A DNA stretch of 64,000 nt from Pseudomonadota bacterium (GTDB lineage Bacteria > Pseudomonadota > Gammaproteobacteria > Burkholderiales > REEB80), in the NCBI GenBank assembly GCA_028873515.1, contig JAGWIG010000011.1, positions 2,991 through 66,990 on the forward strand, in the 5' to 3' direction. This document shows, piece after piece, positions 1 to 38,337 of the stretch (positions are counted from its first letter, which is position 1; each line of letters starts with the position of its first letter). A program made the translations under genes and the position numbers. The notes beneath the pieces were generated by a model, which was not told the origin of the DNA, did no database searches, and was given only the letters and a program-made list of their open reading frames with translations.

Positions 1-362
1 TCTTCCCCTGCCTTCATTTCATCTTTCGGTCCAGGAGTGCCTTGAGCTGGTGGCAGGCTTGCATAATAATTTGCCAGATTGTGGATGGTCATGTCGTCCA
101 GCTGTGCTGCCATACCCCACATGTAGGCCTGTGCATCCGGATCGGTGCGGGTCTGGCTACGAAAAGCCTTAAGCTGCTCTTCAATGTAGGTGGCTCTTTG
201 TCCTGCAAGCCGTGGGAACATTGGGGAGATGCTGATCCCGGCAGCGCCATGACAGGATGAACAGATTGAACTTGCAATGGTAGCCGCATCTTCTTGTGCT
301 GAGGCAGGAATCGCAGAAACCAGAAGACTCAGGCTTGCAAGGAATAGGAATAGGTTTCGCAT
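1..362 (-). CDS. c-type cytochrome, class I (c4-like); N-terminal 120 codons only, runs off the left edge
   Basis: Hand translation from the ATG at 362 gives MRNLFLFLASLSLLVSAIPASA (signal peptide), then a CSSCH heme motif and PRLAGQ...Y...QL, typical of c4/c552 domains. A Pro/Gly linker follows, suggesting a second domain. SD AAGGGAAG lies 13 bp after the upstream stop. Not in the ORF track because it is edge-truncated. Confidence 0.75.
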   Translation of the reverse strand, partial: MRNLFLFLASLSLLVSAIPASAQEDAATIASSICSSCHGAAGISISPMFPRLAGQRATYIEEQLKAFRSQTRTDPDAQAYMWGMAAQLDDMTIHNLANYYASLPPAQGTPGPKDEMKAGE

Positions 363-375
363 TTTAGCTTCCCTT

Positions 376-1773
376 TCAGAAATTGAACCAGCCAAGCAGG
401 TAGAGTGTATTGTTGTCAGACGCATTTCTGCCTAGGCCGTCATAATTGCTCGATCCGCCATTAAATTTTGTATACATGGTGTACTGGAGCGAGAATTTTG
501 TATTGAGCCACGGGAGATAATCCAGCTCTGCAATATAGCCTTGGGTATCAGGGCTGTTGCTTGCACTGCCTGAATAAGCAGCTCCCTGCGGATAAAGCAG
601 GGCATCAGATGTTCCAGTCGTATTGAAGAAGCCGAATGTTCCGCCAAGCTCATGATTATAGAGATAAGCGGCAGTCAGGCGCAATTCGTTAAGCTTGTCT
701 TTCAGGTTGGAAGCTCCCCCGCTGGCAAAGGCGGCATTAAGCGTCTGATCTTCATGAATGTAGCGGCCTTGCAGGGTTATAGCCTGCGTATCGGTAATCC
801 ACTGGTACTGGGTATCGAAGCTCACGTCATTGAAATTGTTGGTTGGCCCTTCAAGAGCGACGCCATTACCAGGAAGAAGCTTGGTATCGATGCCTGAGAA
901 CCCGGCTTCCCAGGAATTTGACCCCCAGTCTTTTTCCGCGGCGATTCTCCAGTATGGAGACAGACCACTTATGACATTGCTATCACCGCTGTCAAGAGGT
1001 CCTTGCCCGGTAATTCCGGTGGCACCCTGTCGGGCAGTACGGTATGCGGAGACCTCAGCATAGAGCCAGTTGTTCCACCAGACATAAGCACCCAGCCCGC
1101 CAACGTCTCCAGCCAAGGTTCCATCAAGCAGGGGAGAGGCTACAGAACCTGGTGCTGCAGAAGGTGTGCCATAAGGGAAGCCCCAGGCTGGCGTGCTGTT
1201 CCAGACATCTTCAACGCTTGGGTTATTGTTGAGGGTAAAACCCCAGACCAGGGGATCGTTTGGAGTCAGTGGGCTCTGGTAACGATCCGCAAAACGGATG
1301 TCCGTATTGTCCATACCCCAGCTTCCAGATCCGGCATCATAAGTCATCTGGATGAAAGCCCCCATCTTCGGGGCAAGACGGCCGGCATAGAACAGGCTGA
1401 CCTGTTGAGGAAACTGGACCTGGCCATTTTGTGCAAGTGCCCCAGTAAGTGCACTGTCTGGCAGTGATTTGTTAGTACGTGTTACGGATCCCTGGAACAT
1501 CAAGGAAAGAGGAGGAATCTGGTTAAGCAACAGGAGATCCCTTTGCGAGAGCGAACTCGCGCTGACCTGTCTGAGGTTATCGACAACATAGCCATTTAGT
1601 TTGAACTGGCGCCCGAAAGGGGTCAGTTCCGGGAACTGGGTGTGGCAGGCGATACATGCCATGCCAGTTTGTCGTGCAAAGCTAGGTACAGCTTGTGCGG
1701 TTACCGAGATGCCGATTCCTGACAGGCTGATGAGTAAGACACTTAATTTTTTGGCGTACCGGTAAGTTGCCAT
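376..1773 (-). CDS. secreted monoheme cytochrome c fused to a predicted outer-membrane beta-barrel (Cyc2-like candidate)
   Basis: The ATG at 1773 has SD GGAG 6 nt upstream; the track starts at the GTG at 1785. Signal peptide ends ...VTAQA. The single CXXCH (CIACH) lies 12 residues into the mature protein. The remaining ~420 aa are Gly/aromatic/polar-rich and strand-like, ending ...LLGWFNF (terminal-Phe OMP signature). Confidence 0.55.
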   Translation of the reverse strand: MATYRYAKKLSVLLISLSGIGISVTAQAVPSFARQTGMACIACHTQFPELTPFGRQFKLNGYVVDNLRQVSASSLSQRDLLLLNQIPPLSLMFQGSVTRTNKSLPDSALTGALAQNGQVQFPQQVSLFYAGRLAPKMGAFIQMTYDAGSGSWGMDNTDIRFADRYQSPLTPNDPLVWGFTLNNNPSVEDVWNSTPAWGFPYGTPSAAPGSVASPLLDGTLAGDVGGLGAYVWWNNWLYAEVSAYRTARQGATGITGQGPLDSGDSNVISGLSPYWRIAAEKDWGSNSWEAGFSGIDTKLLPGNGVALEGPTNNFNDVSFDTQYQWITDTQAITLQGRYIHEDQTLNAAFASGGASNLKDKLNELRLTAAYLYNHELGGTFGFFNTTGTSDALLYPQGAAYSGSASNSPDTQGYIAELDYLPWLNTKFSLQYTMYTKFNGGSSNYDGLGRNASDNNTLYLLGWFNF

Positions 1774-1831
1774 TTTATTCTCCACTGAGCGATGAACTAC
1801 ACTTGAGTTATTAAACCTTTATTCAGTATGG

Positions 1832-1872
1832 ATTCTAGTAGAATCTTAAAATACGATTTTGATGTAAATCAA
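1832..1872 (-). promoter_or_regulatory. class II FNR/CRP-family-dependent promoter candidate for the cytochrome operon
   Basis: A perfect FNR consensus, TTGAT-N4-ATCAA, sits at 1859-1872. 21 nt downstream on the minus strand is a TAGAAT -10 hexamer (1837-1832). This places the box centre at about -40.5/-41.5. Confidence 0.55.
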
Positions 1873-2307
1873 AATTGGTAAAGATTGCCCAGCCCGTTTT
1901 TTTATTAATCGGGAAAAGTGGGTTTACCGGGCTAAACCGCTAAAGCGGGTACAGGCACTGTTTCTTGACGTTTCATCCTTAAACGGCGATGGACGATTGC
2001 CTGTATTGGGCGGGTCTTGTGTTTATGTTTCATAGAGGTTTTATTGAGTAGCGGAACCTCTGCCCTAATTAGCGCCTAATTCCAGTTTGAGCTTGAAATG
2101 TCTGAGGAAGAATGTTTAAGGAAGGTTCACGCTACAGGTTACAAAAGATTGCGATTCATTTTTTCTGGAGCTCGGCATCCTGAGTGGCTCATCTGATCTT
2201 AGGCAATTACAAAGCAATCGGATTATCCTGTGACTTGATGGTTGGCAGGATATGGAGCCTTATCCAGGGTTACACTGAGTCAAGAGCATGGTTTTGGTGA
2301 AGGGGAA

Positions 2308-2637
2308 TCAGTGAAGTCCGGCAAGCGCGAGGGCTAATTCGGATTGTGAGCGTTTATACCGGGCTGCATGGTAGAATACAAACACCTGTTTGCTACGTAG
2401 CTTGGGCACGGTCAGTTGATACGGACCCATCCAGATATTTCTGGGAACAATTTCATCGAGATTGTGTGGCAAGTCGTCAATAAAAACCTGCCAGGCCGAA
2501 TCATTGCGGAAATATTCAAAAGCAACATCAGCATGCCGTTGTACTAGTTTCCAGAAGGATGAACTTGAACCTCGATACCAGCTACGGTAGCTATAAACGC
2601 AAGTCATAAAGGCAACAAGTGCAGCAAATTTACGCAT
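2308..2637 (-). CDS. hypothetical small protein with N-terminal hydrophobic signal/anchor
   Basis: ORF with the ATG at 2637 preceded by SD GGAGGG. MRKFAALVAFMTCVYS is a hydrophobic N-terminus. I recognise no family motif. Confidence 0.4.
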   Translation of the reverse strand: MRKFAALVAFMTCVYSYRSWYRGSSSSFWKLVQRHADVAFEYFRNDSAWQVFIDDLPHNLDEIVPRNIWMGPYQLTVPKLRSKQVFVFYHAARYKRSQSELALALAGLH

Positions 2638-2914
2638 TTTTGAGTACCCTCCGGGAATTGAAAGCAATGGCTTAGTCTGTATACGAAAGATACCATGGCT
2701 TATAGTATGCTAATGGCTCGAGCAGAAAGTGTAAACTTGAAAAGTATTATTTATTTATTTTGATGGCGGTTTTTTATGTAAGGCCATCAAGGGCTGGCAG
2801 GAGTATGAAATCCGGAAAACTCCAGTTTAGCTTGATGGATATTTTTGGTACGATTTATTTGTTGTCGGTTTTTTTTACTGCTTCGTGTGCAGGGCATTTT
2901 GTTCGGGACAGGTT

Positions 2915-3919
2915 ATGAGGATTAAGGGCTTTCTGGTTGTTCTTTGTTTGACCACAGGTATAGCCTGTGTGCTGCTACCTTCGTACGGTATGGCAGATCC
3001 TGTTGTCATCCAGCAGAAATTGCAAGCCATCCCTGATAACAGTGATGATGCCTTGGTGGTATTTGCAAAAGATGGCAGCGTAATTCGGGGAGATGATGCT
3101 CTTGATCTGATGCAGTCCAACAAGACTGATTTGAATATTTGGCTGGGCGGACGTCATTTTTTTGGAATTAAGGCTGTGATTCGTGCCTGGCAGAAGCGGT
3201 ATGGTGGAACTGTTGGCTTAATTACCCTTCCTTCAAAAAGGATTGCCGGGGGAATTGTTGATGGGGGCTGGATTTACCGGGGGAGGAGTTTCAGCATGCG
3301 CCCGGATGTATTCGGGATGATAGGAACAAGAGAGATCAGGAAATTGAAAGATGCCGGGCTTGCGACTGTCAACGTCACCTATGCACATAATGAGCTTGCC
3401 CTGATTGTAGCAAAAGGCAATCCCAAGCATATTCATCAAATTGAGGATTTGGCCCGGCCTAACCTGCATATCATGCTGCCTAACCCGGTTGATGAACGCA
3501 TCATGAAAGTCTATGCTCGAAAAATGCTGGAAAGGTTTCATTTGTGGAAGCGTCTTTCAGGAGGAAAAGATTGTGCGGCTTGCCAGGCAGGCCACGGAGT
3601 GTACTTTACTTCGGCACATGACCTGGAAATTCCTGAAGGAGTCCGTAATGGCCGGGCTGACGTGGGGCTATTATGGCTAACCGAGTGTCAGAATGCTCTT
3701 GGGCACCGATTTAATGTCAGTGTTGTCAGATTACCGCCTGCTCAGAGCCTGAGAGGCGAACTTAGCTATATTGCTGCAGAAGGATCCGCCATCCGCCATC
3801 CTGCTGCTGCCAGGCAGTTCCTGAAATTTTTGGGTTCACAGGAAGCCCAGTCGATTTTAACCAGGCATGGATACATAGGTGCAGATAAATGGGAGTTAAA
3901 AATACGAAAAATTAAATGA
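2915..3919 (+). CDS. periplasmic substrate-binding protein, ModA/SBP_bac_11-like fold, ligand unknown (no cognate permease or ATPase nearby)
   Basis: 334 aa from the ATG at 2915, with a signal peptide (MRIKGFLVVLCLTTGIA). Segments such as YAHNELALIVAKGNPKHIHQIEDLARP and GRADVGLLWLTE resemble molybdate/tungstate-type binding proteins. Confidence 0.5.
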   Translation: MRIKGFLVVLCLTTGIACVLLPSYGMADPVVIQQKLQAIPDNSDDALVVFAKDGSVIRGDDALDLMQSNKTDLNIWLGGRHFFGIKAVIRAWQKRYGGTVGLITLPSKRIAGGIVDGGWIYRGRSFSMRPDVFGMIGTREIRKLKDAGLATVNVTYAHNELALIVAKGNPKHIHQIEDLARPNLHIMLPNPVDERIMKVYARKMLERFHLWKRLSGGKDCAACQAGHGVYFTSAHDLEIPEGVRNGRADVGLLWLTECQNALGHRFNVSVVRLPPAQSLRGELSYIAAEGSAIRHPAAARQFLKFLGSQEAQSILTRHGYIGADKWELKIRKIK

Positions 3920-24461: not shown

Positions 24462-24668
24462 TCAGCCTTCGTTCTTGTAAAGTGCTTCGACACCTATTTT
24501 GCCAGCAGCAATTTCCCGCAGTGCAATGACGGTTGATTTGTCGCGATCGGGATCCAGCAGGGGATGAGCCCCATGGGCGAGCTGACGTGCACGATAAGTT
24601 GCAGCAAGGGTCATGTCGAAGCGGTTTGGAATATTTTCCAGGCAGTCATCTATGGTAATACGTGCCAT
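24462..24668 (-). CDS. rpoZ: DNA-directed RNA polymerase subunit omega
   Basis: 68 aa, [30 protein letters not shown]. Confidence 0.96.
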
Positions 24669-24681
24669 TTTTCCTCCAGGG

Positions 24682-25296
24682 TTACTTTATCAGTTTCAAG
24701 AAAAGGTCTGCGTGTGTTTCAAGTTGGCGGGACCGCCGAAGGCGGTTCACCAGGACTATGCTCCGCAATTCATGCAAGGCTGTCTCAAAGCTAGCATTAA
24801 TAATAACATAATCGAAATCGGCAACGTGCATCATGTCGGCCCTGGCCTCAACAAGTCTTGCACGAATTACATCATCGCTGTCCTGCGCGCGGGCACGCAG
24901 CCGCTTCTCCAGCTCTGCGAGCGAAGGTGGGAGAATGAATATGCCGGTGGTTTCCTGAAAGAGATGTCGGATCTGGTTTGCGCCCTGCCAGTCGATTTCA
25001 AGCACCATGTCGTGACCTTTAAGCATCCCTGCCTCGATGAAGGCTCGGGAAGTGCCATAGTGGTGACCGTAGACTTTAGCCGATTCAAGAAAATCTCCTC
25101 GTGCCTGCATATCAAAAAATTCTTCCTCGGTGATGAAATGATAGTCTTTCCCATTTATTTCACCTGGCCTGGGATTACGTGTCGTATGAGAGATGGACAG
25201 TCTTACATTTGAGTCAGTTTCAAGCAGGCGCCGAACCAGGCTTGTCTTGCCTGCACCAGAAGGTGCGGTAATGATGAACAGGGTGCCGTTTGACAA
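24682..25296 (-). CDS. gmk: guanylate kinase
   Basis: P-loop [10 protein letters not shown] and full-length guanylate kinase similarity; 204 aa. Confidence 0.96.
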
Positions 25297-28886: not shown

Positions 28887-30380
28887 ATGGTTTTCCCTGT
28901 TTTATTTCATGAATTTTCATATATGCCTAACTTGAAGCAGGAACTTATTCATCAACTTGGACAGGTGCTTGAAACGGGATCAATCCTGAGTCAGGCCGAA
29001 GCCATGAGCCCCTTTGAAAGCGATGGGCTGACAGCCATGAAGCAGCTGCCTTTGGTGGTGGTATTACCTTCAAATGAAAAAGAAGTCTGTGCCGTACTGC
29101 GTATCTGTCATGAACTATCGATTCCTGTTGTGGTGCGAGGGGCGGGAACCGGATTGTCCGGAGGGGCTCTTCCTGTCGGGGAAGGAGTTCTGCTTTCTAT
29201 GGCAAGGTTTATGCGTATACTGGACATAGATCCACTAGCACGGGTGGCAAGGGTGGAGCCTGGAGTTCGAAATCTCTCCATTTCCCAGGCAGCGGCAAGC
29301 CATAACCTTTTTTATGCACCGGATCCTTCAAGCCAGATAGCCTGTACAATCGGGGGGAATATTGCTGAAAACTCAGGAGGCGTACATTGCCTGAAATACG
29401 GGTTGACCGTGCATAATCTTTTACGCCTGAGAATAGCAACCATGACAGGAGAAATGATTGAAATCGGTTCTGAAGCGCTGGACTCTCCGGGGTATGATCT
29501 GCTGGCACTGATGACTGGATCTGAAGGTATGCTGGGTGTTGTGACTGAAGCCACTGTCCGCCTTTTGCCCAAACCAGAATCAGTTTGTGTGGTTCTGGCT
29601 GCTTTCGATGACATTTCCTGTGCTGCGCAGGCGGTTGGAAGCATTATTGCCAGCGGAATATTGCCTGCTGGGCTGGAAATGATGGATCATCTGTCCATCA
29701 AAGCAGTAGAGGCCTTTGTGCACGCAGGCTATCCTACGGTGGCAGCAATTTTGCTGTGTGAGCTGGACGGGACAAAAGAGGCGGTTGAAGAGCAGGTCCT
29801 GGCAGTAAATGCTGTTTTTAAACGTCATCAGGTGAAGGAAGTTCGTGAAGCCTGGGATGAATTGAGCCGCCATCTTTTTTGGGCAGGTCGAAAGGCAGCT
29901 TTCCCGGCAGTGGGCCGTCTCTCGCCAGACTATTACTGTATGGATGGCACTATTCCCCGTAGAAAACTGGCTTTTATTCTTGAAAGCCTGCAGGAATTAT
30001 CCCGGACTTCAGGTTTGCAGATTGCCAATGTTTTTCATGCAGGGGACGGAAACCTTCACCCACTGATTATGTACGATGCCAACTGCGAAGGTGAACAGAA
30101 GCTTGCAGAAAGTGTGGGGGCACAGATTCTGGAGCTTTGTCTTGAAGCTGGAGGGTCAATTACAGGTGAGCATGGTGTAGGGATGGAAAAAATAAACCAG
30201 ATGTGTTCCCAATTCGGGCGGGCTGAACTTGATTTGTTTTTAGGGGTGAAGCTTTCTTTTGATCCTTCAGGCCTGCTCAACCCAGGTAAAGTAATTCCAA
30301 CACTTCATCGCTGTGCCGAATATGGGGCCATGCATGTGCATTCAGGCCAGCTTTTGCATGGTGAGATGGAGAGGTTTTAG
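28887..30380 (+). CDS. glcD: glycolate oxidase subunit GlcD (FAD-linked oxidase)
   Basis: FAD-binding PCMH domain (VVVRGAGTGLSGGALP), followed by glcE and glcF. An alternative start is the ATG at 28923. Confidence 0.9.
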   Translation: MVFPVLFHEFSYMPNLKQELIHQLGQVLETGSILSQAEAMSPFESDGLTAMKQLPLVVVLPSNEKEVCAVLRICHELSIPVVVRGAGTGLSGGALPVGEGVLLSMARFMRILDIDPLARVARVEPGVRNLSISQAAASHNLFYAPDPSSQIACTIGGNIAENSGGVHCLKYGLTVHNLLRLRIATMTGEMIEIGSEALDSPGYDLLALMTGSEGMLGVVTEATVRLLPKPESVCVVLAAFDDISCAAQAVGSIIASGILPAGLEMMDHLSIKAVEAFVHAGYPTVAAILLCELDGTKEAVEEQVLAVNAVFKRHQVKEVREAWDELSRHLFWAGRKAAFPAVGRLSPDYYCMDGTIPRRKLAFILESLQELSRTSGLQIANVFHAGDGNLHPLIMYDANCEGEQKLAESVGAQILELCLEAGGSITGEHGVGMEKINQMCSQFGRAELDLFLGVKLSFDPSGLLNPGKVIPTLHRCAEYGAMHVHSGQLLHGEMERF

Positions 30381-30386
30381 CCTGTC

Positions 30387-31445
30387 GTGGATATTCTTAT
30401 TGAACAGTTTTCGGAGCGGATTCGGCAAGCCAGGCTGACGGGTGAATCTTTAAGACTGCAGGGTGGGGGAAGCAAGGGTTTTTATGGTGAAAAATTTGTT
30501 GGAAGCCTTTTGGAGGTTGCCAATTTTTCTGGAGTTATTGATTATGAGCCCTCTGAGCTGGTATTAAGTGCCCGATGTGGCACTCCGCTTGTTGAAATTG
30601 AGAAATTATTGGCTGAACACGGGCAGATTCTGGGTTTTGAGCCACCTCATTTCGGGGAAACGGCGACCCTTGGCGGTACGGTTGCATGTGGATTTTCAGG
30701 ACCACGTAGAGCCACTGCCGGTTCTTTGCGTGATCATCTGCTTGGGGTGCGAATCATTGATGGCCAGGGGCAAGACTTGCGTTTTGGTGGACAGGTCATG
30801 AAAAATGTAGCTGGATATGATGTGTCCCGACTGATGGTGGGGGCACTGGGTACGCTTGGTCTTCTTGCAGAACTGACGCTTCGGGTCATGCCAAAGCCTG
30901 TTCATGAGTGCACCTTGTCTCTTGAACTTTCAGCTAAGGCAGCCATCGAAAAAATGAATCATCTGGCTGGAATGCCTATTCCTCTTTCCGCAACCTGCTA
31001 TGTAGAAAACTGTCTTTATCTTCGTTTAAGCGGATTGCAGCGTGAAGTGGACACCCACGTTTTCCGGCTCGGGGGAGAAACAATTCTGGATGCAGATCAA
31101 TTCTGGAATTCCATACGGGAGCAGGAGCACAGGTTTTTTAGGGATGCCCCGTTTTTATGGCGTTTTTCTGTTCCCTCAATGGCTTGTCTAGATTCATTTG
31201 ACGAGCCGGGTTTAATTGAATGGGGCGGGGCTTTACGCTGGTCGGTAGCTGATATTCCAGCATGTAAGGTACGAATGGCGGCAGAAAGGGTGGGGGGGCA
31301 TGCAAACCTGTTCAGGGGGAAGCAACCCGATGTTCCCTTGTTTCATCCGCAATCCTCTGCGATACGAGCTATTCAGACACGTCTTAAAGACCAGTTTGAT
31401 CCAGATAGGGTTTTGAACCGCTTTCGGATGTATTCTTATTTCTAG
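30387..31445 (+). CDS. glcE: glycolate oxidase subunit GlcE (FAD-binding)
   Basis: 352 aa FAD-binding-domain protein between glcD and glcF; GTG start. Confidence 0.85.
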   Translation: MDILIEQFSERIRQARLTGESLRLQGGGSKGFYGEKFVGSLLEVANFSGVIDYEPSELVLSARCGTPLVEIEKLLAEHGQILGFEPPHFGETATLGGTVACGFSGPRRATAGSLRDHLLGVRIIDGQGQDLRFGGQVMKNVAGYDVSRLMVGALGTLGLLAELTLRVMPKPVHECTLSLELSAKAAIEKMNHLAGMPIPLSATCYVENCLYLRLSGLQREVDTHVFRLGGETILDADQFWNSIREQEHRFFRDAPFLWRFSVPSMACLDSFDEPGLIEWGGALRWSVADIPACKVRMAAERVGGHANLFRGKQPDVPLFHPQSSAIRAIQTRLKDQFDPDRVLNRFRMYSYF

Positions 31446-31451
31446 ATAAAT

Positions 31452-32714
31452 ATGCAGACAAAGTTACCTGAATCATTGCTTCAGACGTTTGAAGGGCAAG
31501 AGGCCGAAGCGATTCTTCGTTCCTGTGTACACTGTGGTTTTTGTCTGGCTACCTGCCCGACTTATCAGTTGACAGGTAATGAACTAGATAGTCCCCGTGG
31601 ACGGATATACCTTATCAAGAATGCCCTGGAAGGCTCACCGGTTACCCGAATAACCCAGCACCATCTTGATCGGTGCCTGACTTGCCGATCTTGTGAACGG
31701 GCCTGCCCAAGCCTCGTTCAGTATGGACGACTGCTTGAGATAGGCCGTGCATATGTCCATGAACGTTTTACCCGCCCTTTCCCTGAAAGAGCAGCACGAA
31801 ATCTGTTACGGCTTGGACTGCTTAACCGATCCTTGTTTGAGAGATTGATAAAGCTGGCGCGGCTGGTACGTCCATGTCTACCCCTATGGCTAAAACGGAC
31901 CGTTGCCCATCGTTCTGCTTCACAGCCTGTTTTTAAACAAAACCGGGCAAGGAAAATGCTCATACTGGATGGGTGTGTGCAGCCAGGCCTTGCTTCGGGG
32001 ATTAATGAGGCAGCAAGACGCGTGCTGGACCGTATGAACCTGTCGCTGGTCAGTGCAAAAAATTCTGGTTGCTGCGGGAGTCTCAGTTTGCATCTTGATG
32101 CACGAGAAGAGGCATTCAATTATATGCGGCAGAACATTGATGCCTGGTGGCCACATGTTGAAAGTGGTATAGAAGCAATCATTATGACTGCATCGGGTTG
32201 TGGGGTGACGGTTCGTGAATATGGAAAGCATCTCGCCCATGATCCTGCCTATGCCGAGCGTGCGAGAAGGATATCTGAACTGACCCGTGATATCAGCGAG
32301 GTCATTCTGGCTGAAGGGGCCGTTCTGCTGTCAGCTTACCCAGTGCTTCTTGGTCGGCATGTGGCTTTCCATGCACCCTGTACGCTTCAGCATGGCCAAT
32401 CACTAAGGGGTGTGGTGGAAGAGGTACTGGTGACTGCTGGGGCTATTCTCACGGATGTGCCAGAAGGCCATATGTGTTGCGGATCAGCTGGAGCCTATTC
32501 TTTTTTTGAGCCCGAAATGTCTAAACAGTTAAGACGCCTTCGCCTTGAAGCATTACAGTCGGGTGCTCCCGAGGAAATCGTAACTGCCAATATCGGGTGT
32601 ATGATGCATCTTGCTGCCAGGGCTAAAGTTCCTGTGCGCCACTGGATTGAGTTACTTGATGATGGGTTTGCTACGCTGGAAAAGAATGTCCCATACGCCA
32701 TGCCCCAGCTTTAG
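31452..32714 (+). CDS. glcF: glycolate oxidase iron-sulfur subunit GlcF
   Basis: Two ferredoxin-type clusters ([24 protein letters not shown]) and two CCG domains; 420 aa. Confidence 0.9.
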
Positions 32715-35938: not shown

Positions 35939-37297
35939 ATGCGGAAACGGGCCTTTTTTATTTTTTTCATGCTTACCGGATTTGTCCTGTTATTATGGGC
36001 AACCATCTGGCTATATTCAGCACATCCTTGTCGTCGGTTTATTGAAAATAAAATTGGACAGGCGCTACACCGGAAATTCTCTATTGAAGGGCCCATTTCA
36101 TTCAGGGTAGGCGATCCATTTCAGATTGAGATTGATGATTTTTATCTGGATAATCGGGACAGCCATGGGCGATTATTCGATGCCAAGCGTATGGTGATAG
36201 ACTTTGCCATCTGGCCCTTGTTTAAGGGGCAGTTGGGAATCAAGAGATTATTACTTGAAAAGGCCCATCTGAATCTTTCCTTTTCTCGCAATGGAAAATT
36301 GAATATTGATGATCTGCTTCATTCGGGAGGGCAGTCGCATCTTGTTTCCTTGCCCGGGAATTTAAGGATTCAGGATTCAGTTCTTGAGGTTAACGACTCC
36401 GAAAAGAGGGTTCAGGGAGAAGCATTGATTAAGGTTTTATCACTGGAGAACCCCTATAAACCTGGGGGAAAAATGGATTTGGCCGCCTATTTGCAGATGG
36501 GTGGAAAAGGACTTCAAGTATTGGCTTCAACAAAGATAAAAGCAGAGCCAGGGGTGAAATGGCTGGCCCTAAAAAGGGTAAGGGTTAAAGTTGCAACTTC
36601 CTGGGGAGGGCTTGATTTGATATCGCCGTCAGCAAGATTTGAGCCAGGTAACCGTATCCTGTTTAATTCATTCAATCTCCATTTTATTGGAACCAGGGAT
36701 CAATCTGTTTCTGTTATTTCAGGTCACGCAGAATTTTCAGGTGAGCGGCTGGCTTATGCTCGCGCAAAGGTTGAGGCGGAAGTACCAGGACAGAAACTTG
36801 AAATCACCTTACCAGCATATGAGGGTCCTTACACTGGAGAATTTCCAGTAGAATTTTCCTATCAGATGCAAAAACCCAGAATTGTACGTGCTCATGGCAA
36901 CGCTGACATCGGCGTTTCTGATCTGAAACAGGCGAGGGGGAAGTTTTCGCTTTCTTTTGGTATTGGGGATCCAGTTCATTCTTTTGAGGGCAAACTGGCA
37001 GGAAAGGCTAATGTAGATTTAAGTCAGAAATCCGCGGATCTGGATGTATCTGGTCTGATTGCCCAGAGTCCCGTCCGGTTGATAGCTCATTGGACTGGCG
37101 GTAACCCTTGGCACCTGGATTTGGATGGGAGGATTCAACGGCTTGATTATGCAGATCTACCTCATGGGGGGTCTCCATCCCGAAATTGCTATTGGCTTTC
37201 TGGACAGTTGCAGGCGGACAGGTTGCTTTTTCATGGCCTCACAGTCCATGGTGCCACCCTGACCTTTGATCCTCATCAATGTGCCTTTCTGCCATGA
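35939..37297 (+). CDS. AsmA family protein (short, 452 aa)
   Basis: N-terminal TM anchor plus an AsmA-like N-terminal region (...IEGPISFRVGDPFQIEIDDFYL...LFKGQLGIKRLLLEKAHLNL). Shorter than typical AsmA proteins. Confidence 0.55.
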   Translation: MRKRAFFIFFMLTGFVLLLWATIWLYSAHPCRRFIENKIGQALHRKFSIEGPISFRVGDPFQIEIDDFYLDNRDSHGRLFDAKRMVIDFAIWPLFKGQLGIKRLLLEKAHLNLSFSRNGKLNIDDLLHSGGQSHLVSLPGNLRIQDSVLEVNDSEKRVQGEALIKVLSLENPYKPGGKMDLAAYLQMGGKGLQVLASTKIKAEPGVKWLALKRVRVKVATSWGGLDLISPSARFEPGNRILFNSFNLHFIGTRDQSVSVISGHAEFSGERLAYARAKVEAEVPGQKLEITLPAYEGPYTGEFPVEFSYQMQKPRIVRAHGNADIGVSDLKQARGKFSLSFGIGDPVHSFEGKLAGKANVDLSQKSADLDVSGLIAQSPVRLIAHWTGGNPWHLDLDGRIQRLDYADLPHGGSPSRNCYWLSGQLQADRLLFHGLTVHGATLTFDPHQCAFLP

Positions 37298-38337
37298 ATG
37301 CTAATGCTGATTTTTCCAAAAAAATAATCGCCTGGCAGAAGTCCGAAGGCCGACATGATTTACCGTGGCAGAACTGTTTCGATCCATATCGGATCTGGGT
37401 ATCTGAAATCATGCTTCAGCAGACTCAAGTCAGCACGGTTATTCCTTATTTCAATCGGTTCATGAGTGTTTTTCCTGATATAGCCACACTTGCTTCATCT
37501 TCCCTTGATGCCGTGCTCGCTCACTGGAGTGGTCTTGGCTATTATTCACGCGCCCGTAATCTGCACTTGGCAGCAAAGGAAATCATGGTGGCTCATGGCG
37601 GTTATTTCCCAGTCTCCTTTGAGTTGATCCTGGGTTTGCCTGGGATTGGCCGAACGACAGCTGCTGCACTGAGTGTTTTTGCCTATGGTGCAAGGGAGGC
37701 GATTCTGGATGGGAATGTCAAGAGAGTGTTTGCAAGATATTTTGCAATAGAAGGGAATCTATCAGGCAAAAGGGAAGAAAAGGACCTCTGGCCCCTGGCT
37801 TACTCGCTTCTTCCGTCAAATGAGATTGCTATTTATACACAGGGTTTGATGGATCTTGGCGCAACCTGCTGTAAACCCCGGAAACCAGAGTGTATGCGCT
37901 GTCCGTTGCATCTGGATTGTGTTGCCTACAGGCAGGGCAGGGCGCACGAATTTCCTTCAAAGCGTTTGCGTAAGGCTATTCCCGAAAAGCAGACTGTTAT
38001 GCTGGTTCTGGAACATGAAGGCAAGCTTCTTTTCAAACGTCACCCAGAAAAGGGGCTTTGGGGTGGTTTATATGTTTTTCCGCAAGCGGAAACGATTGCA
38101 GAAGCCGAAAATTTCGTGTCAACCTGGTTAGGCATGGACACATTGGTGGGAAGATGGCTTGAACCTTTGATGCATACTTTTACTCATTTTCGTCTTTCCA
38201 TCTTGCCTTGGCATATATGGGTAAAGGATAAGGTAGATCCGGGAAGGAATGAGATCTGGATGACCCGCAGTGAGGCTTTGGGGGCTGGTTTACCTGTTCC
38301 GGTCAGGAAGCTTGTGCGCCAGGTCATTCCTGATTAA
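37294..38337 (+). CDS. mutY: A/G-specific adenine DNA glycosylase
   Basis: HhH-GPD domain (LPGIGRTTAAA), 4Fe-4S loop CCKPRKPECMRCPLHLDC and a C-terminal NUDIX-like domain. The ATG at 37294 overlaps the asmA-like stop (ATGA). Confidence 0.94.
   Translation: MNANADFSKKIIAWQKSEGRHDLPWQNCFDPYRIWVSEIMLQQTQVSTVIPYFNRFMSVFPDIATLASSSLDAVLAHWSGLGYYSRARNLHLAAKEIMVAHGGYFPVSFELILGLPGIGRTTAAALSVFAYGAREAILDGNVKRVFARYFAIEGNLSGKREEKDLWPLAYSLLPSNEIAIYTQGLMDLGATCCKPRKPECMRCPLHLDCVAYRQGRAHEFPSKRLRKAIPEKQTVMLVLEHEGKLLFKRHPEKGLWGGLYVFPQAETIAEAENFVSTWLGMDTLVGRWLEPLMHTFTHFRLSILPWHIWVKDKVDPGRNEIWMTRSEALGAGLPVPVRKLVRQVIPD

What the first reader, a model, noticed from the sequence alone, without database searches (positions are those of the whole stretch)
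1..1773. Candidate Cyc2-like fused cytochrome-porin translationally linked to a c4-type cytochrome
Seen in the sequence: the 465-aa product has a cleavable signal peptide (…VTAQA/VPSF) and exactly one CXXCH (CIACH) 12 residues into the mature chain. About 420 aa of Gly/Tyr/Trp/Asn/Ser-rich, strand-like sequence follow, ending ...LYLLGWFNF; a terminal aromatic residue is typical of outer-membrane beta-barrels. 13 bp downstream, with its own SD, begins a class I cytochrome c (CSSCH, PRLAGQ..Y..QL, i.e. c4/c552-like) that continues beyond the left edge.

Established knowledge: Cyc2 is a fused monoheme cytochrome/porin. It is the proposed outer-membrane Fe(II) oxidase of Acidithiobacillus, Zetaproteobacteria and Gallionellaceae. 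In the A. ferrooxidans rus operon, cyc2 is followed by the c4-type cyc1.

Inference: this pair could be an outer-membrane-to-periplasm electron-uptake module (Fe(II) or another extracellular donor) sitting in an otherwise housekeeping neighbourhood. I could not align it to Cyc2, so the call rests on architecture only.
Basis: partly seen in the sequence, partly recalled or inferred. Interest (0 to 1): 0.72.

Follow-up and report, generated by a model that had tools for sequence, protein, structure and literature searches.

The report
Cyc2-type cytochrome-porin with c4 partner
The gene pair at the left edge of the window is a real homologue of the Acidithiobacillus outer-membrane iron oxidase Cyc2 and its periplasmic partner cytochrome Cyc1. 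This pair is already known to be widespread, so it is a correct call and a new member of a known kind, not a new kind of system.

Summary
Window 376-1773 (-) encodes a 465-aa protein with a signal peptide, one CXXCH and a C-terminal Phe. Thirteen bases downstream a dihaem cytochrome c gene starts.

- The protein carries the published Cyc2 signature exactly: AVPSFARQT-3 aa-CIACH-3 aa-PEL.
- It aligns end to end with the rus-operon Cyc2 of Acidithiobacillus (36% identity, E 6e-78).
- It models as a 16-stranded porin barrel behind a roughly 60-aa haem domain.
- The downstream cytochrome is 48% identical to Cyc1. Its best solved relative is A. ferrooxidans CYC41 (1H1O).
- The cyc2-cyc1 pairing is kept in 80 of 81 related genome loci.

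Here the operon has only these two genes and ends in a terminator. No cup, cox or rusticyanin genes follow. The host is an uncultured Burkholderiales-like MAG and the neighbourhood is housekeeping.

One new detail: a perfect FNR/FixK-type box (TTGATTTACATCAA) lies 31 bp upstream of a TAGAAT -10 element. It is conserved as a footprint in the 85% orthologue, which suggests induction at low oxygen.

Membership of the Acidithiobacillus-type (Cluster 2) Cyc2 group is near certain. Fe(II) oxidation itself is inferred, and the literature treats it as uncertain for such homologues.

The parts
376..1773 (-). cyc2-like gene encoding a 465-aa fused monohaem cytochrome-porin (stop codon at 376-378)
   Evidence: ORF and translation. 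36% identity and E 6e-78 to the Acidithiobacillus rus-operon Cyc2. More than 7,898 homologues. 3,439 clusters at 50% identity.
1693..1773 (-). Signal peptide codons (residues 1-27, cleavage AQA|VPSF)
   Evidence: Read directly from the sequence. The cleavage position aligns with the Edman-determined N-terminus LPSFARQ of mature A. ferrooxidans Cyc2. No signal-peptide predictor was run.
1510..1692 (-). Cytochrome-like domain (residues 28-88), holding the Cyc2 signature AVPSFARQT-GMA-CIACH-TQF-PEL; the CXXCH codons are at 1642-1656
   Evidence: Motif match: against the published definition. The residues are invariant in 53 homologues. The AF2 model has low confidence here because no haem is modelled. 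The A. ferrooxidans model places the same domain at about residues 30-90.
379..1509 (-). 16-stranded beta-barrel porin domain (residues 89-465), ending in Phe
   Evidence: AF2 model with pTM 0.78 and 16 strands by DSSP. Foldseek against PDB gives 16-stranded general porins as top hits, E about 2e-8.
363..375 (-). 13-nt spacer between cyc2-like and cyc1-like, carrying the second gene's Shine-Dalgarno (AAGGGAAGCTAAA)
   Evidence: The Acidithiobacillus cyc2-cyc1 spacer is 11 nt.
1..362 (-). 5' part (120 codons) of the cyc1-like dihaem cytochrome c4 gene, which runs off the left edge of the window
   Evidence: Pfam Cytochrom_C. The full-length 199-aa protein in L084 is identical over the 120 aa and has CSSCH and CAACH. 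48% identity to Cyc1. Best PDB hit 1H1O, E 1.5e-43.
1859..1872 (-). Perfect FNR/FixK-type box TTGATTTACATCAA; its centre is 92.5 nt upstream of the ATG
   Evidence: Two boxes in the window against 0.21 expected. Conserved as a footprint in the 85% orthologue while the flanks diverge. Boxes with at most 1 mismatch lie upstream of 17 of 74 homologues against about 2 expected.
1832..1837 (-). Candidate -10 hexamer TAGAAT, 31 bp centre to centre from the FNR box (class II spacing)
   Evidence: The hexamer is TAAAAT in L001. The transcription start is not mapped.
1780..1783 (-). Shine-Dalgarno GGAG of the cyc2-like gene
   Evidence: The surrounding block is conserved in L001 and L084.

Best explanation
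Window 1-1773 (-) holds a two-gene operon that is homologous to the first two genes of the Acidithiobacillus rus operon.

**Gene 1.** It encodes a Cyc2-family fused cytochrome-porin of the Acidithiobacillus type (Cluster 2). After Sec export and cleavage at AQA|VPSF, a roughly 60-residue segment carrying one covalently bound c-type haem (CIACH) is tethered to a 16-stranded outer-membrane barrel. It sits in or at the periplasmic mouth of the barrel.

**Gene 2.** It encodes a soluble periplasmic dihaem cytochrome c4 of the Cyc1/CYC41 type.

**Proposed mechanism (inferred from the characterised homologues).** Dissolved Fe(II) enters the pore and gives one electron to the Cyc2 haem. The haem passes it to the c4 cytochrome. 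The c4 cytochrome delivers it to a terminal oxidase or another inner-membrane acceptor encoded elsewhere in the genome.

**Proposed regulation (inferred).** Transcription is probably activated by an FNR/FixK-family regulator at a class II promoter. The module would then be made when oxygen is scarce, which is when Fe(II) persists at neutral pH.

**Shown versus inferred.**
- Shown: gene structure, homology, fold, conserved pairing, and the conserved box.
- Inferred: haem attachment, outer-membrane location, Fe(II) as substrate, direction of electron flow, and FNR control.

**Sub-confidences.** Membership of the Cyc2/Cyc1 families is about 0.95. Fe(II) oxidation as the physiological role is about 0.55. 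FNR-type control is about 0.5.
For: **Cyc2 membership.**
- The Cyc2 signature AXPXFAR[Q/K][T/Y], CXXCH and PXL, which Keffer et al. 2021 describe as unique to Cyc2, is present exactly as AVPSFARQT..CIACH..PEL.
- There is a full-length alignment to the 485-aa Cyc2 at the head of an Acidithiobacillus rus operon (cyc2-cyc1-cup-coxBACD-rus): 36% identity, E 6e-78.
- That identity exceeds the 26.7-29.6% that A. ferrooxidans Cyc2 shares with the other members of its cluster in the published table.
- With phmmer, the Acidithiobacillus protein would rank about 112th among 3,439 family clusters.
- The mature N-terminus aligns with the Edman-determined LPSFARQ.

**Fold.** The AF2 model has 16 strands and pTM 0.78. 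Its top solved-structure matches are 16-stranded porins.

**Partner cytochrome.** It is 48% identical to Cyc1, E 2e-55. Its best PDB hit is A. ferrooxidans cytochrome c-552/CYC41 (1H1O, E 1.5e-43), ahead of generic c4 cytochromes.

**Conserved pairing and context.**
- 80 of 81 distinct genome loci have the Cyc1-like gene directly downstream on the same strand.
- A HiPIP gene follows cyc1 in 16 loci.

**Regulation.**
- A perfect TTGAT-N4-ATCAA box lies 31 bp from a TAGAAT hexamer.
- It is conserved in L001 although the flanks have diverged.
- Boxes are enriched upstream of homologues, 17 of 74 against about 2 expected.
- hemN or usp genes are neighbours in other lineages.
- There is a precedent: the pioABC iron-oxidation operon is driven by a class II FixK promoter.
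Against: **No functional data.** There are no experiments for this protein or any close relative. The nearest relatives are all MAG proteins annotated only as 'cytochrome C'.

**Literature caution.** Assigning iron oxidation to Cluster 2 homologues needs supporting context. Many such homologues occur in bacteria not known to oxidise iron, including Burkholderia, Ralstonia and Xanthomonas.

**Context is uninformative.**
- The operon lacks cup, cox and rusticyanin, and ends at a terminator.
- The 64-kb window is housekeeping, with no oxidase, RuBisCO or other lithotrophy genes.

**Limits of the tests.**
- The reference used is the orthologue from an A. ferrivorans MAG, not the biochemically studied A. 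ferrooxidans protein itself.
- The FeGenie HMMs were not run.
- The haem-domain part of the model has low confidence (pLDDT below 50 for residues 21-49 and 66-86).

**Limits of the regulatory inference.**
- The transcription start is not mapped.
- No FNR gene was looked for.
- The gammaproteobacterial loci lack the box.
- Three of the 17 boxes could belong to a divergent hemN gene.
Confidence: 0.6

Rival explanations
1. The proteins are as described (a true Cyc2/Cyc1 pair), but the physiological role is not energy-conserving Fe(II) oxidation. The module could instead:
- detoxify Fe(II) or scavenge electrons at low oxygen without supporting growth;
- oxidise another small reduced solute that fits the pore;
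- run in reverse, passing electrons from the periplasm to an external acceptor during anoxia.
For: - The family is huge and mostly found in taxa not known as iron oxidisers.
- The authors of the Cyc2 work say additional functions are possible and that Cluster 2 and 3 function is uncertain.
- No oxidase, rusticyanin or carbon-fixation genes lie nearby.
- FNR-type control, and hemN or usp neighbours in other lineages, fit anaerobic respiration as well as they fit microaerobic oxidation.
Against: - All three biochemically tested Cyc2 proteins oxidise Fe(II).
- The partners seen with this subfamily, Cyc1-type c4 in 80 of 81 loci and HiPIP in 16, are the carriers used in known iron-oxidation chains.
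- A single haem behind a narrow pore is poorly suited to reaching solid external acceptors.
Confidence: 0.32
2. It is an ordinary diffusion porin, the CXXCH is incidental or non-functional, and the adjacent cytochrome is an unrelated housekeeping c4.
For: - The barrel resembles general porins such as OmpF and OmpC.
- No Pfam or NCBIfam model matches the protein.
- A second, unlinked dihaem cytochrome gene lies a few kb away in L084 and L001.
Against: - C40, C43, H44 and the flanking motif are invariant in 53 homologues.
- 140 of 150 family representatives have exactly one CXXCH. The 10 without one are mostly N-terminally truncated fragments.
- The alignment to Cyc2 covers the full length.
- The downstream gene is closest to the rus-operon Cyc1, not to generic c4, and it accompanies cyc2 in 80 of 81 loci.
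Confidence: 0.02
3. It is part of a porin plus multihaem-cytochrome conduit of the MtoAB/PioAB/MtrAB type.
For: Such conduits also move electrons across the outer membrane, and pioABC also has an FNR-family promoter.
Against: - Those systems use a 26-stranded porin and a separate decahaem cytochrome.
- Here the barrel has 16 strands.
- The haem is fused and single.
- The partner has two haems.
Confidence: 0.01

Closest known systems
Cyc2 of Acidithiobacillus ferrooxidans/ferrivorans (rus operon; Cyc2 'Cluster 2')
   Same: - Fused signal peptide, monohaem domain and barrel.
- Same cleavage position, immediately before (L/V)PSFARQ.
- Same AXPXFARQT..CXXCH..PXL motif.
- 36% identity over the full length.
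- Followed after 11-13 nt by a Cyc1-type c4 gene.
   Different: - 465 aa against 485 aa.
- The host is a non-acidophile-like, uncultured Burkholderiales-type MAG.
- The operon stops after cyc1, with no cup, coxBACD or rus genes.
- It has a putative FNR-type promoter.
- The physiological donor and redox potential are unknown.
Cyc1 / CYC41 (cytochrome c-552, PDB 1H1O), the dihaem c4 of the rus operon
   Same: - Dihaem class I c4 architecture with two CXXCH motifs, and PRLAGQ..Y..QL in both halves.
- 48% identity.
- 1H1O is the best solved relative, E 1.5e-43.
- Same gene position, directly after cyc2.
   Different: - 199 aa against 229 aa for the precursor.
- No rusticyanin or aa3 oxidase is encoded alongside, so its downstream acceptor is unknown.
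Cyc2PV-1 of Mariprofundus ferrooxydans (Cluster 1, neutrophilic iron oxidisers)
   Same: - Same architecture and predicted 16-stranded barrel.
- The cytochrome-domain peptide QTGAACLSCHFQTFPALNAFGR aligns to residues 35-55 at 64% identity.
   Different: - None of the nine published porin-domain peptides aligns significantly.
- The window protein therefore belongs with the Acidithiobacillus-type cluster, whose iron-oxidase role outside acidophiles is less certain.
pioABC of Rhodopseudomonas palustris TIE-1 (regulation only)
   Same: It is an outer-membrane iron-oxidation operon driven by a class II promoter with a canonical FixK/FNR box near -41 to -44.
   Different: It has unrelated proteins: a decahaem PioA, a 26-strand PioB and the HiPIP PioC. 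Regulation there is demonstrated experimentally, whereas here it is only predicted.
General 16-stranded porins (OmpF/OmpC, Omp-Pst1, BpsOmp38)
   Same: The barrel fold matches, with Foldseek E about 2e-8 and TM-score 0.4-0.6.
   Different: Sequence identity is only 8-15%. These porins have no N-terminal haem domain and no cytochrome partner.

Membership tests
Cyc2 fused cytochrome-porin (criteria of McAllister 2020 / Keffer 2021) | Length of at least 365 aa | tested here: met
   465 aa. The criterion is stated.
Cyc2 fused cytochrome-porin (criteria of McAllister 2020 / Keffer 2021) | Single CXXCH haem-binding motif near the N-terminus | tested here: met
   CIACH at residues 40-44. This is the only CXXCH and these are the only two cysteines.
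Cyc2 fused cytochrome-porin (criteria of McAllister 2020 / Keffer 2021) | AXPXFAR[Q/K][T/Y] motif just upstream of the CXXCH (stated to be unique to Cyc2), and PXL 4 residues downstream | tested here: met
   AVPSFARQT at residues 28-36 and CIACHTQFPEL. These residues are invariant in 53 homologues.
Cyc2 fused cytochrome-porin (criteria of McAllister 2020 / Keffer 2021) | BLASTP E <= 1e-5 to a reference Cyc2 | tested here: met
   E 6e-78 and 36% identity over 480 columns to the Cyc2 of an Acidithiobacillus rus operon. The reference is an A. ferrivorans MAG orthologue.
Cyc2 fused cytochrome-porin (criteria of McAllister 2020 / Keffer 2021) | 16-stranded porin barrel following the cytochrome domain | tested here: met
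   The AF2 model has 16 strands between residues 89 and 464, with pTM 0.78. Foldseek hits are 16-stranded porins.
Cyc2 fused cytochrome-porin (criteria of McAllister 2020 / Keffer 2021) | Signal peptide, with the mature chain starting at xPSFARQ | tested here: met
   Found by inspection (n-region, h-region and AQA motif) and by alignment to the Edman-defined N-terminus LPSFARQ. No predictor was run.
Cyc2 fused cytochrome-porin (criteria of McAllister 2020 / Keffer 2021) | Score above cutoff on a FeGenie Cyc2 cluster HMM | not testable with these tools
   The HMMs are not available here. Assignment to the A. ferrooxidans cluster rests on identity higher than the published within-cluster values and on rank among family representatives.
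Cyc2 fused cytochrome-porin (criteria of McAllister 2020 / Keffer 2021) | Covalent haem, outer-membrane location and Fe(II)-oxidising activity | not testable with these tools
   These require expression, fractionation, haem staining and kinetics, as done in Keffer 2021.
Cyc2 Cluster 1 (neutrophilic iron-oxidiser type, e.g. Cyc2PV-1) | Full-length similarity to a Cluster 1 reference | tested here: not met
   This is a partial test using the published PV-1 peptides (264 aa in total). Only the haem-domain peptide aligns (E 6e-9). The porin peptides give E > 0.4.
Cyc1/CYC41-type dihaem cytochrome c4 | Two class I domains, each with CXXCH; homology to Cyc1; gene directly downstream of cyc2 | tested here: met
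   CSSCH and CAACH in 199 aa. 48% identity, E 2e-55. Best PDB hit 1H1O. The adjacency is kept in 80 of 81 loci. Only the first 120 codons lie inside the window.
rus operon (cyc2-cyc1-cup-coxBACD-rus) | Cup, aa3 oxidase and rusticyanin genes downstream of cyc1 | tested here: not met
   In L084 (96.7% DNA identity to the window) cyc1-like is followed by a terminator and then a DNA glycosylase gene. L001 likewise has no cox or rus genes.
MtoAB/PioAB/MtrAB porin-cytochrome conduits | 26-stranded porin with a separate decahaem cytochrome | tested here: not met
   16 strands, one fused haem and a dihaem partner.
Class II FNR/FixK-dependent promoter | TTGAT-N4-ATCAA box centred near -41.5 relative to the transcription start | tested here: inconclusive
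   A perfect box lies at 1859-1872, 31 bp from a TAGAAT hexamer, and it is conserved in L001. The transcription start is not mapped and no regulator gene was sought.

The most novel reading that the evidence does not exclude
In this uncultured Burkholderiales-type lineage and many of its betaproteobacterial relatives, a minimal two-gene Cyc2-Cyc1 module is switched on by an FNR-family oxygen sensor. It would give ordinary heterotroph-like bacteria a low-oxygen route for taking electrons from dissolved Fe(II), or possibly for exporting electrons. If so, the 3,439-cluster family marks a much larger, oxygen-gated and so far unrecognised contribution to neutral-pH iron cycling than the classical iron oxidisers alone.
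Probability: 0.3. Interest if true: 0.5.

Novelty: new member of a known kind. Interest (0 to 1): 0.3.

Why it matters
Cyc2 is the most widely used genetic marker for bacterial iron oxidation. Its meaning outside the classical iron oxidisers is an open question.

This locus adds a clean example of the Acidithiobacillus-type Cyc2-Cyc1 pair, stripped to two genes, in a neutral-GC, housekeeping context of an uncultured Burkholderiales-like bacterium.

The survey made here gives three testable handles on what the large, uncharacterised part of the family does and when it is expressed:
- the pairing with Cyc1 is nearly universal (80 of 81 loci);
- HiPIP is a frequent third gene;
- FNR-type boxes recur upstream in the betaproteobacterial members.

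It does not change the current picture. Homologues in these taxa, and the caution about their function, are already in the literature.

Tried and rejected
**Searches that found nothing or were unavailable.**
- Pfam and NCBIfam have no model for the 465-aa protein.
- A PDB sequence search found nothing.
- The exact window protein is not indexed for contig look-up. The 99% relative P0001 was used instead.
- A literature search for the related MAG names found nothing.
- The Rhodoferax MIZ03 paper proved irrelevant because that strain has no cyc2.

**Getting reference Cyc2 sequences.**
- Full-text motif searches and paper supplements gave only the Edman N-terminus and the PV-1 peptides. Searches found nothing.
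- The Acidithiobacillus reference was therefore obtained by baiting with a rusticyanin sequence recalled from memory and walking up the rus operon.
- Only the retrieved database records are used as evidence.

**A count that was replaced.** My first ORF/regex count of downstream dihaem genes undercounted because of start-codon and frame handling. It was replaced by tblastn, which gave 80 of 81.

**Features examined and dismissed.**
- A Fur box upstream was sought and not found. The best match has 8 of 19 mismatches, no better than shuffled sequence.
- The GATTCTACTAGAATC palindrome upstream is not conserved in L001. It is read as overlapping the -10 region, not as an operator.
- The 119-aa ORF upstream (2308-2667) is conserved only in the two closest genomes and is not part of the module.
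- The second FNR-type box at 37266-37279 lies at a gene junction unrelated to respiration and is taken as chance.
Full report
**What is in the sequence.**
- On the minus strand an ORF runs from an ATG at 1773 to a TGA at 378-376 and encodes 465 aa.
- A GGAG lies 8 nt upstream of the ATG. The alternative GTG at 1785 sits inside that Shine-Dalgarno, so the ATG is taken as the start.
- The product begins with a typical Sec signal (MATYRYAKK-LSVLLISLSGIGISV-TAQA).
- It then reads VPSFARQTGMACIACHTQFPELTPFGRQFKLNGY.
- It has exactly one CXXCH, which holds the only two cysteines.
- The rest is Gly/Ser/Thr/Asn/Tyr/Trp-rich and ends in ...GWFNF.
- Thirteen nucleotides after the stop, behind its own Shine-Dalgarno, a second ORF starts (window 362 to 1). 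It has a signal peptide, CSSCH and PRLAGQ..Y..QL, and it leaves the window after 120 codons.

**Source of the window.**
- Exact-sequence look-up shows the window comes from an NCBI metagenome-assembled genome labelled 'Pseudomonadota bacterium'. The protein is MDE3021260.1, annotated only as 'cytochrome C', on a 73-kb contig.
- Members of the same 90% protein clusters come from 'Burkholderiales bacterium' MAGs.
- The rest of the 64-kb window is housekeeping: groEL, ubiCAD, recG, spoT, glcDEF, thiG, mutY, rpoN-hprK-rapZ, lpt, mla, murA, the his operon, tatC and degP. There is one tRNA-Phe.

**No existing model covers the protein.** Pfam and NCBIfam do not recognise the 465-aa protein, and no solved structure matches it by sequence.

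**The family is very large.**
- More than 7,898 proteins match in the 90%-clustered database. Nearly all are about 460 aa, and the few that are named are called 'cytochrome C'.
- There are 3,439 clusters at 50% identity with E <= 1e-3, and 460 with E <= 1e-30.
- Of the 150 best representatives, 140 have exactly one CXXCH. The other 10 lack the motif and are mostly N-terminally truncated fragments.

**Test against the published definition of Cyc2.**
- Keffer et al. 2021 (PMC8406198) define Cyc2 by four features: at least 365 aa, a single CXXCH, an AXPXFAR[Q/K][T/Y] motif just upstream that they call unique to Cyc2, and a PXL motif four residues after the CXXCH. All of this is fused to a predicted 16-stranded porin.
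- The window protein reads A-V-P-S-F-A-R-Q-T, then GMA, then CIACH, then TQF, then P-E-L. This is an exact match.
- These residues are invariant in an alignment of 53 homologues.
- The N-terminus of mature A. ferrooxidans Cyc2 determined by Edman sequencing is LPSFARQ (PMC3084935). This is the same position as the predicted AQA|VPSFARQ cleavage here.

**Direct comparison with a reference Cyc2.**
- No reference sequence was at hand. I searched with a rusticyanin sequence recalled from memory and fetched the DNA around a database rusticyanin from an Acidithiobacillus ferrivorans MAG.
- The locus shows the textbook rus operon. It has a 485-aa ORF with no Pfam hit, then 11 nt later a 229-aa cytochrome c, then a 183-aa ORF, COX2, COX1, two small ORFs and rusticyanin.
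- The 485-aa protein begins ...SSSAWA|LPSFARQTG, matching the Edman data.
- The window protein aligns to it from residue 8 to the last residue: 36% identity, 52% positives, E 6e-78.
- In the published identity table, A. ferrooxidans Cyc2 shares only 26.7-29.6% with the other listed members of its own cluster (Ferrovum, Dechloromonas, Burkholderiales GJ-E10, Thiomonas). It shares 18-23% with members of the other clusters.
- So the window protein sits well inside the Acidithiobacillus-type cluster, which is Cluster 2 in the main text of that paper.
- Scored with phmmer at library size, the Acidithiobacillus protein would rank about 112th of 3,439 family representatives.
- In contrast, of the published tryptic peptides of the Cluster 1 protein Cyc2PV-1, only the haem-domain peptide aligns (64% over 22 aa). 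The porin peptides do not.

**Predicted fold.**
- An AlphaFold2 model built on the 53-sequence alignment has mean pLDDT 75.6 and pTM 0.78.
- It shows sixteen beta-strands between residues 89 and 464, preceded by short helices around the haem motif. That N-terminal part has low confidence, as expected without the cofactor.
- Foldseek against the PDB returns 16-stranded general porins first (Omp-Pst1, OmpF/OmpC, BpsOmp38; E about 2e-8, TM-score 0.4-0.6).
- The domain boundary agrees with an independent model of A. ferrooxidans Cyc2, which has a cytochrome-like domain at about residues 30-90 and a barrel from about 90 to the end.

**The partner cytochrome and the end of the operon.**
- A contig from another sample (L084) is 96.7% identical in DNA to window 1-3000. 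It carries the complete downstream gene.
- That gene encodes 199 aa with two haem motifs (CSSCH, CAACH). The first 120 aa are identical to the window's partial ORF.
- The protein is 48% identical to the rus-operon Cyc1, E 2e-55.
- Its best solved relative is A. ferrooxidans cytochrome c-552/CYC41 (1H1O, E 1.5e-43), ahead of generic c4 cytochromes (E 1e-25 to 6e-33).
- In L084 the gene is followed by a strong stem-loop plus T-run (AAAAGCCCCTTC...GAAGGGGCTTATTTTAT) and then a DNA glycosylase gene.
- The 85% orthologous locus L001 likewise has no oxidase or rusticyanin genes.
- The operon is therefore bicistronic. A separate, membrane-anchored dihaem cytochrome gene lies about 3 kb further on in L084.

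**Conservation of the gene pair.**
- A scan of one genome per species returned 80 loci, all from MAGs of Betaproteobacteria/Burkholderiales, Steroidobacteraceae and other Gammaproteobacteria.
- By tblastn, 80 of 81 distinct loci have a Cyc1-like dihaem gene directly downstream on the same strand. The one exception has no room downstream on its contig. An earlier ORF-based count undercounted.
- Clustering of all neighbouring ORFs found further recurrent neighbours:
  - a HiPIP gene right after cyc1 in 16 loci;
  - a histidine kinase in 18 loci;
  - a LuxR-type response regulator in 15 loci;
  - a tandem Usp protein in 12 loci;
  - hemN upstream in 10-11 loci.
- HiPIPs and c4 cytochromes are the periplasmic carriers of known iron-oxidation chains.

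**Regulation.**
- Upstream of the gene lies a perfect FNR/FixK-type palindrome, TTGATTTACATCAA (window 1872-1859). The window holds two such boxes against 0.21 expected.
- Its centre is 31 bp from the centre of a TAGAAT hexamer and 92.5 nt from the ATG. This is the geometry of a class II FNR promoter, with the start of transcription predicted near 1824-1825.
- In the 85% orthologue the block TTGATTTACATCAAAATC-TATTTT is unchanged, while the surrounding intergenic DNA has diverged. The -10 reads TAAAAT there.
- Across the related loci, a box with at most one mismatch lies in the 390 nt upstream in 17 of 74 cases, against about 2 expected from the loci's own background.
- These boxes occur almost only in the betaproteobacterial loci. 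About ten of them lie at the same distance from the gene as in the window.
- Only three of those loci have a divergent hemN that could own the box.
- No Fur box is present.
- An experimentally proven precedent is the pioABC iron-oxidation operon of R. palustris, which is driven by a class II FixK promoter.
- FNR control is an inference. The transcription start is unmapped and no regulator was sought.

**How it most likely works.**
- By homology, the haem domain is exported, receives its haem in the periplasm, and plugs or enters the 16-stranded barrel.
- Dissolved Fe(II) enters the narrow pore and reduces the single haem. The electron passes to the periplasmic c4 cytochrome and on to an oxidase encoded elsewhere (mechanism as proposed).
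- The FNR-type promoter, and the hemN or usp neighbours in other lineages, suggest the module is made at low oxygen, where Fe(II) is stable at neutral pH.

**What is shown and what is inferred.**
- Shown: homology, fold, conserved pairing and the conserved box.
- Inferred: substrate, direction of electron flow, cellular location and regulation.
- The main rival keeps the same proteins but a different role: detoxification, another donor, or reversed flow. The Cyc2 literature itself says function in Cluster 2 homologues distant from Acidithiobacillus needs supporting context. No such context (oxidase, carbon fixation, iron-rich habitat) is visible here.

**Novelty and verdict.**
- Acidithiobacillus-type Cyc2 and Cyc1 homologues in Burkholderiales, Nitrosomonadales, Rhodanobacteraceae and others are already reported.
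- Cluster 2 cyc2 is noted in Leptothrix-Sphaerotilus.
- Sequences from Burkholderia, Ralstonia and Xanthomonas were numerous enough to be thinned from the published tree.
- The modest additions here are the near-universal cyc2-cyc1 adjacency in this subfamily, HiPIP as a frequent third gene, and a conserved FNR-type box.
- Interest is 0.3.

Noticed in passing
window 37266-37279: A second perfect TTGAT-N4-ATCAA box (TTGATCCTCATCAA) lies at the junction of an AsmA-like ORF (35939-37297) and mutY (37279-38337). It is probably chance, since no respiration gene is nearby.
   Followed up: partly
window 376-1773 compared with the rest of the window: The cyc2-like gene has GC3 of 0.53 and GC of 0.52. 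Twelve housekeeping genes have GC3 of 0.45 +/- 0.02, and the window GC is 0.485. This could reflect codon bias from high expression or past horizontal transfer.
   Followed up: partly
window 2308-2667 (-): A 119-aa ORF with no Pfam hit lies about 520 bp upstream of cyc2-like on the same strand. It is conserved only in the two closest genomes (L084 98%, L001 65%) and absent from the other loci, so it is not part of the module.
   Followed up: partly
L072 8030-8380 and 15 other related loci: A Tat-signal HiPIP gene sits immediately after cyc1 in 16 related loci, giving cyc2-cyc1-hipip. The window lineage lacks it.
   Followed up: partly
L006 3960-5405, L041 4669-5715, L079 1290-2453, L044 1270-1911: Recurrent neighbours of the cyc2-cyc1 pair in other lineages are hemN (10-11 loci), a tandem Usp protein (12), a histidine kinase (18) and a LuxR-type response regulator (15). 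These hint at oxygen- or stress-linked control.
   Followed up: partly
L005 8006-8560 and 19 other loci: A roughly 185-aa secreted protein with an Ala/Pro-rich region and no Pfam hit lies about 670 nt downstream of cyc2 in 20 loci, mostly betaproteobacterial. Its function is unknown.
   Followed up: no
L084 6197-7099 (beyond the left edge of the window); L001 12815-13429: A separate dihaem cytochrome c gene lies about 3 kb past the operon. In L084 the protein has an N-terminal membrane anchor and a long Ala/Pro/Ser linker. It is a possible further electron carrier but is not co-transcribed.
   Followed up: partly
representatives P0238, P0255, P0263, P0270, P0297, P0301, P0304: A subset of family members has an insertion after the haem histidine (CH-V/I-G-G/S/A-F-G-P-Q/R-LT instead of CHT-x-FPELT). 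This may mark a distinct haem environment or subfamily.
   Followed up: no
window 24613-25296: Two overlapping ORFs on opposite strands (24613-25212 +, 199 aa; 24682-25296 -, 204 aa). The plus-strand ORF has no Pfam hit and the minus-strand ORF was not checked, so it is unresolved which one is the real gene.
   Followed up: no
window 28887-32714: A glcD-glcE-glcF-like glycolate oxidase cluster (FAD-oxidase, FAD-binding and CCG/4Fe-4S proteins) lies downstream of a hemW/hemN-like radical SAM gene.
   Followed up: no
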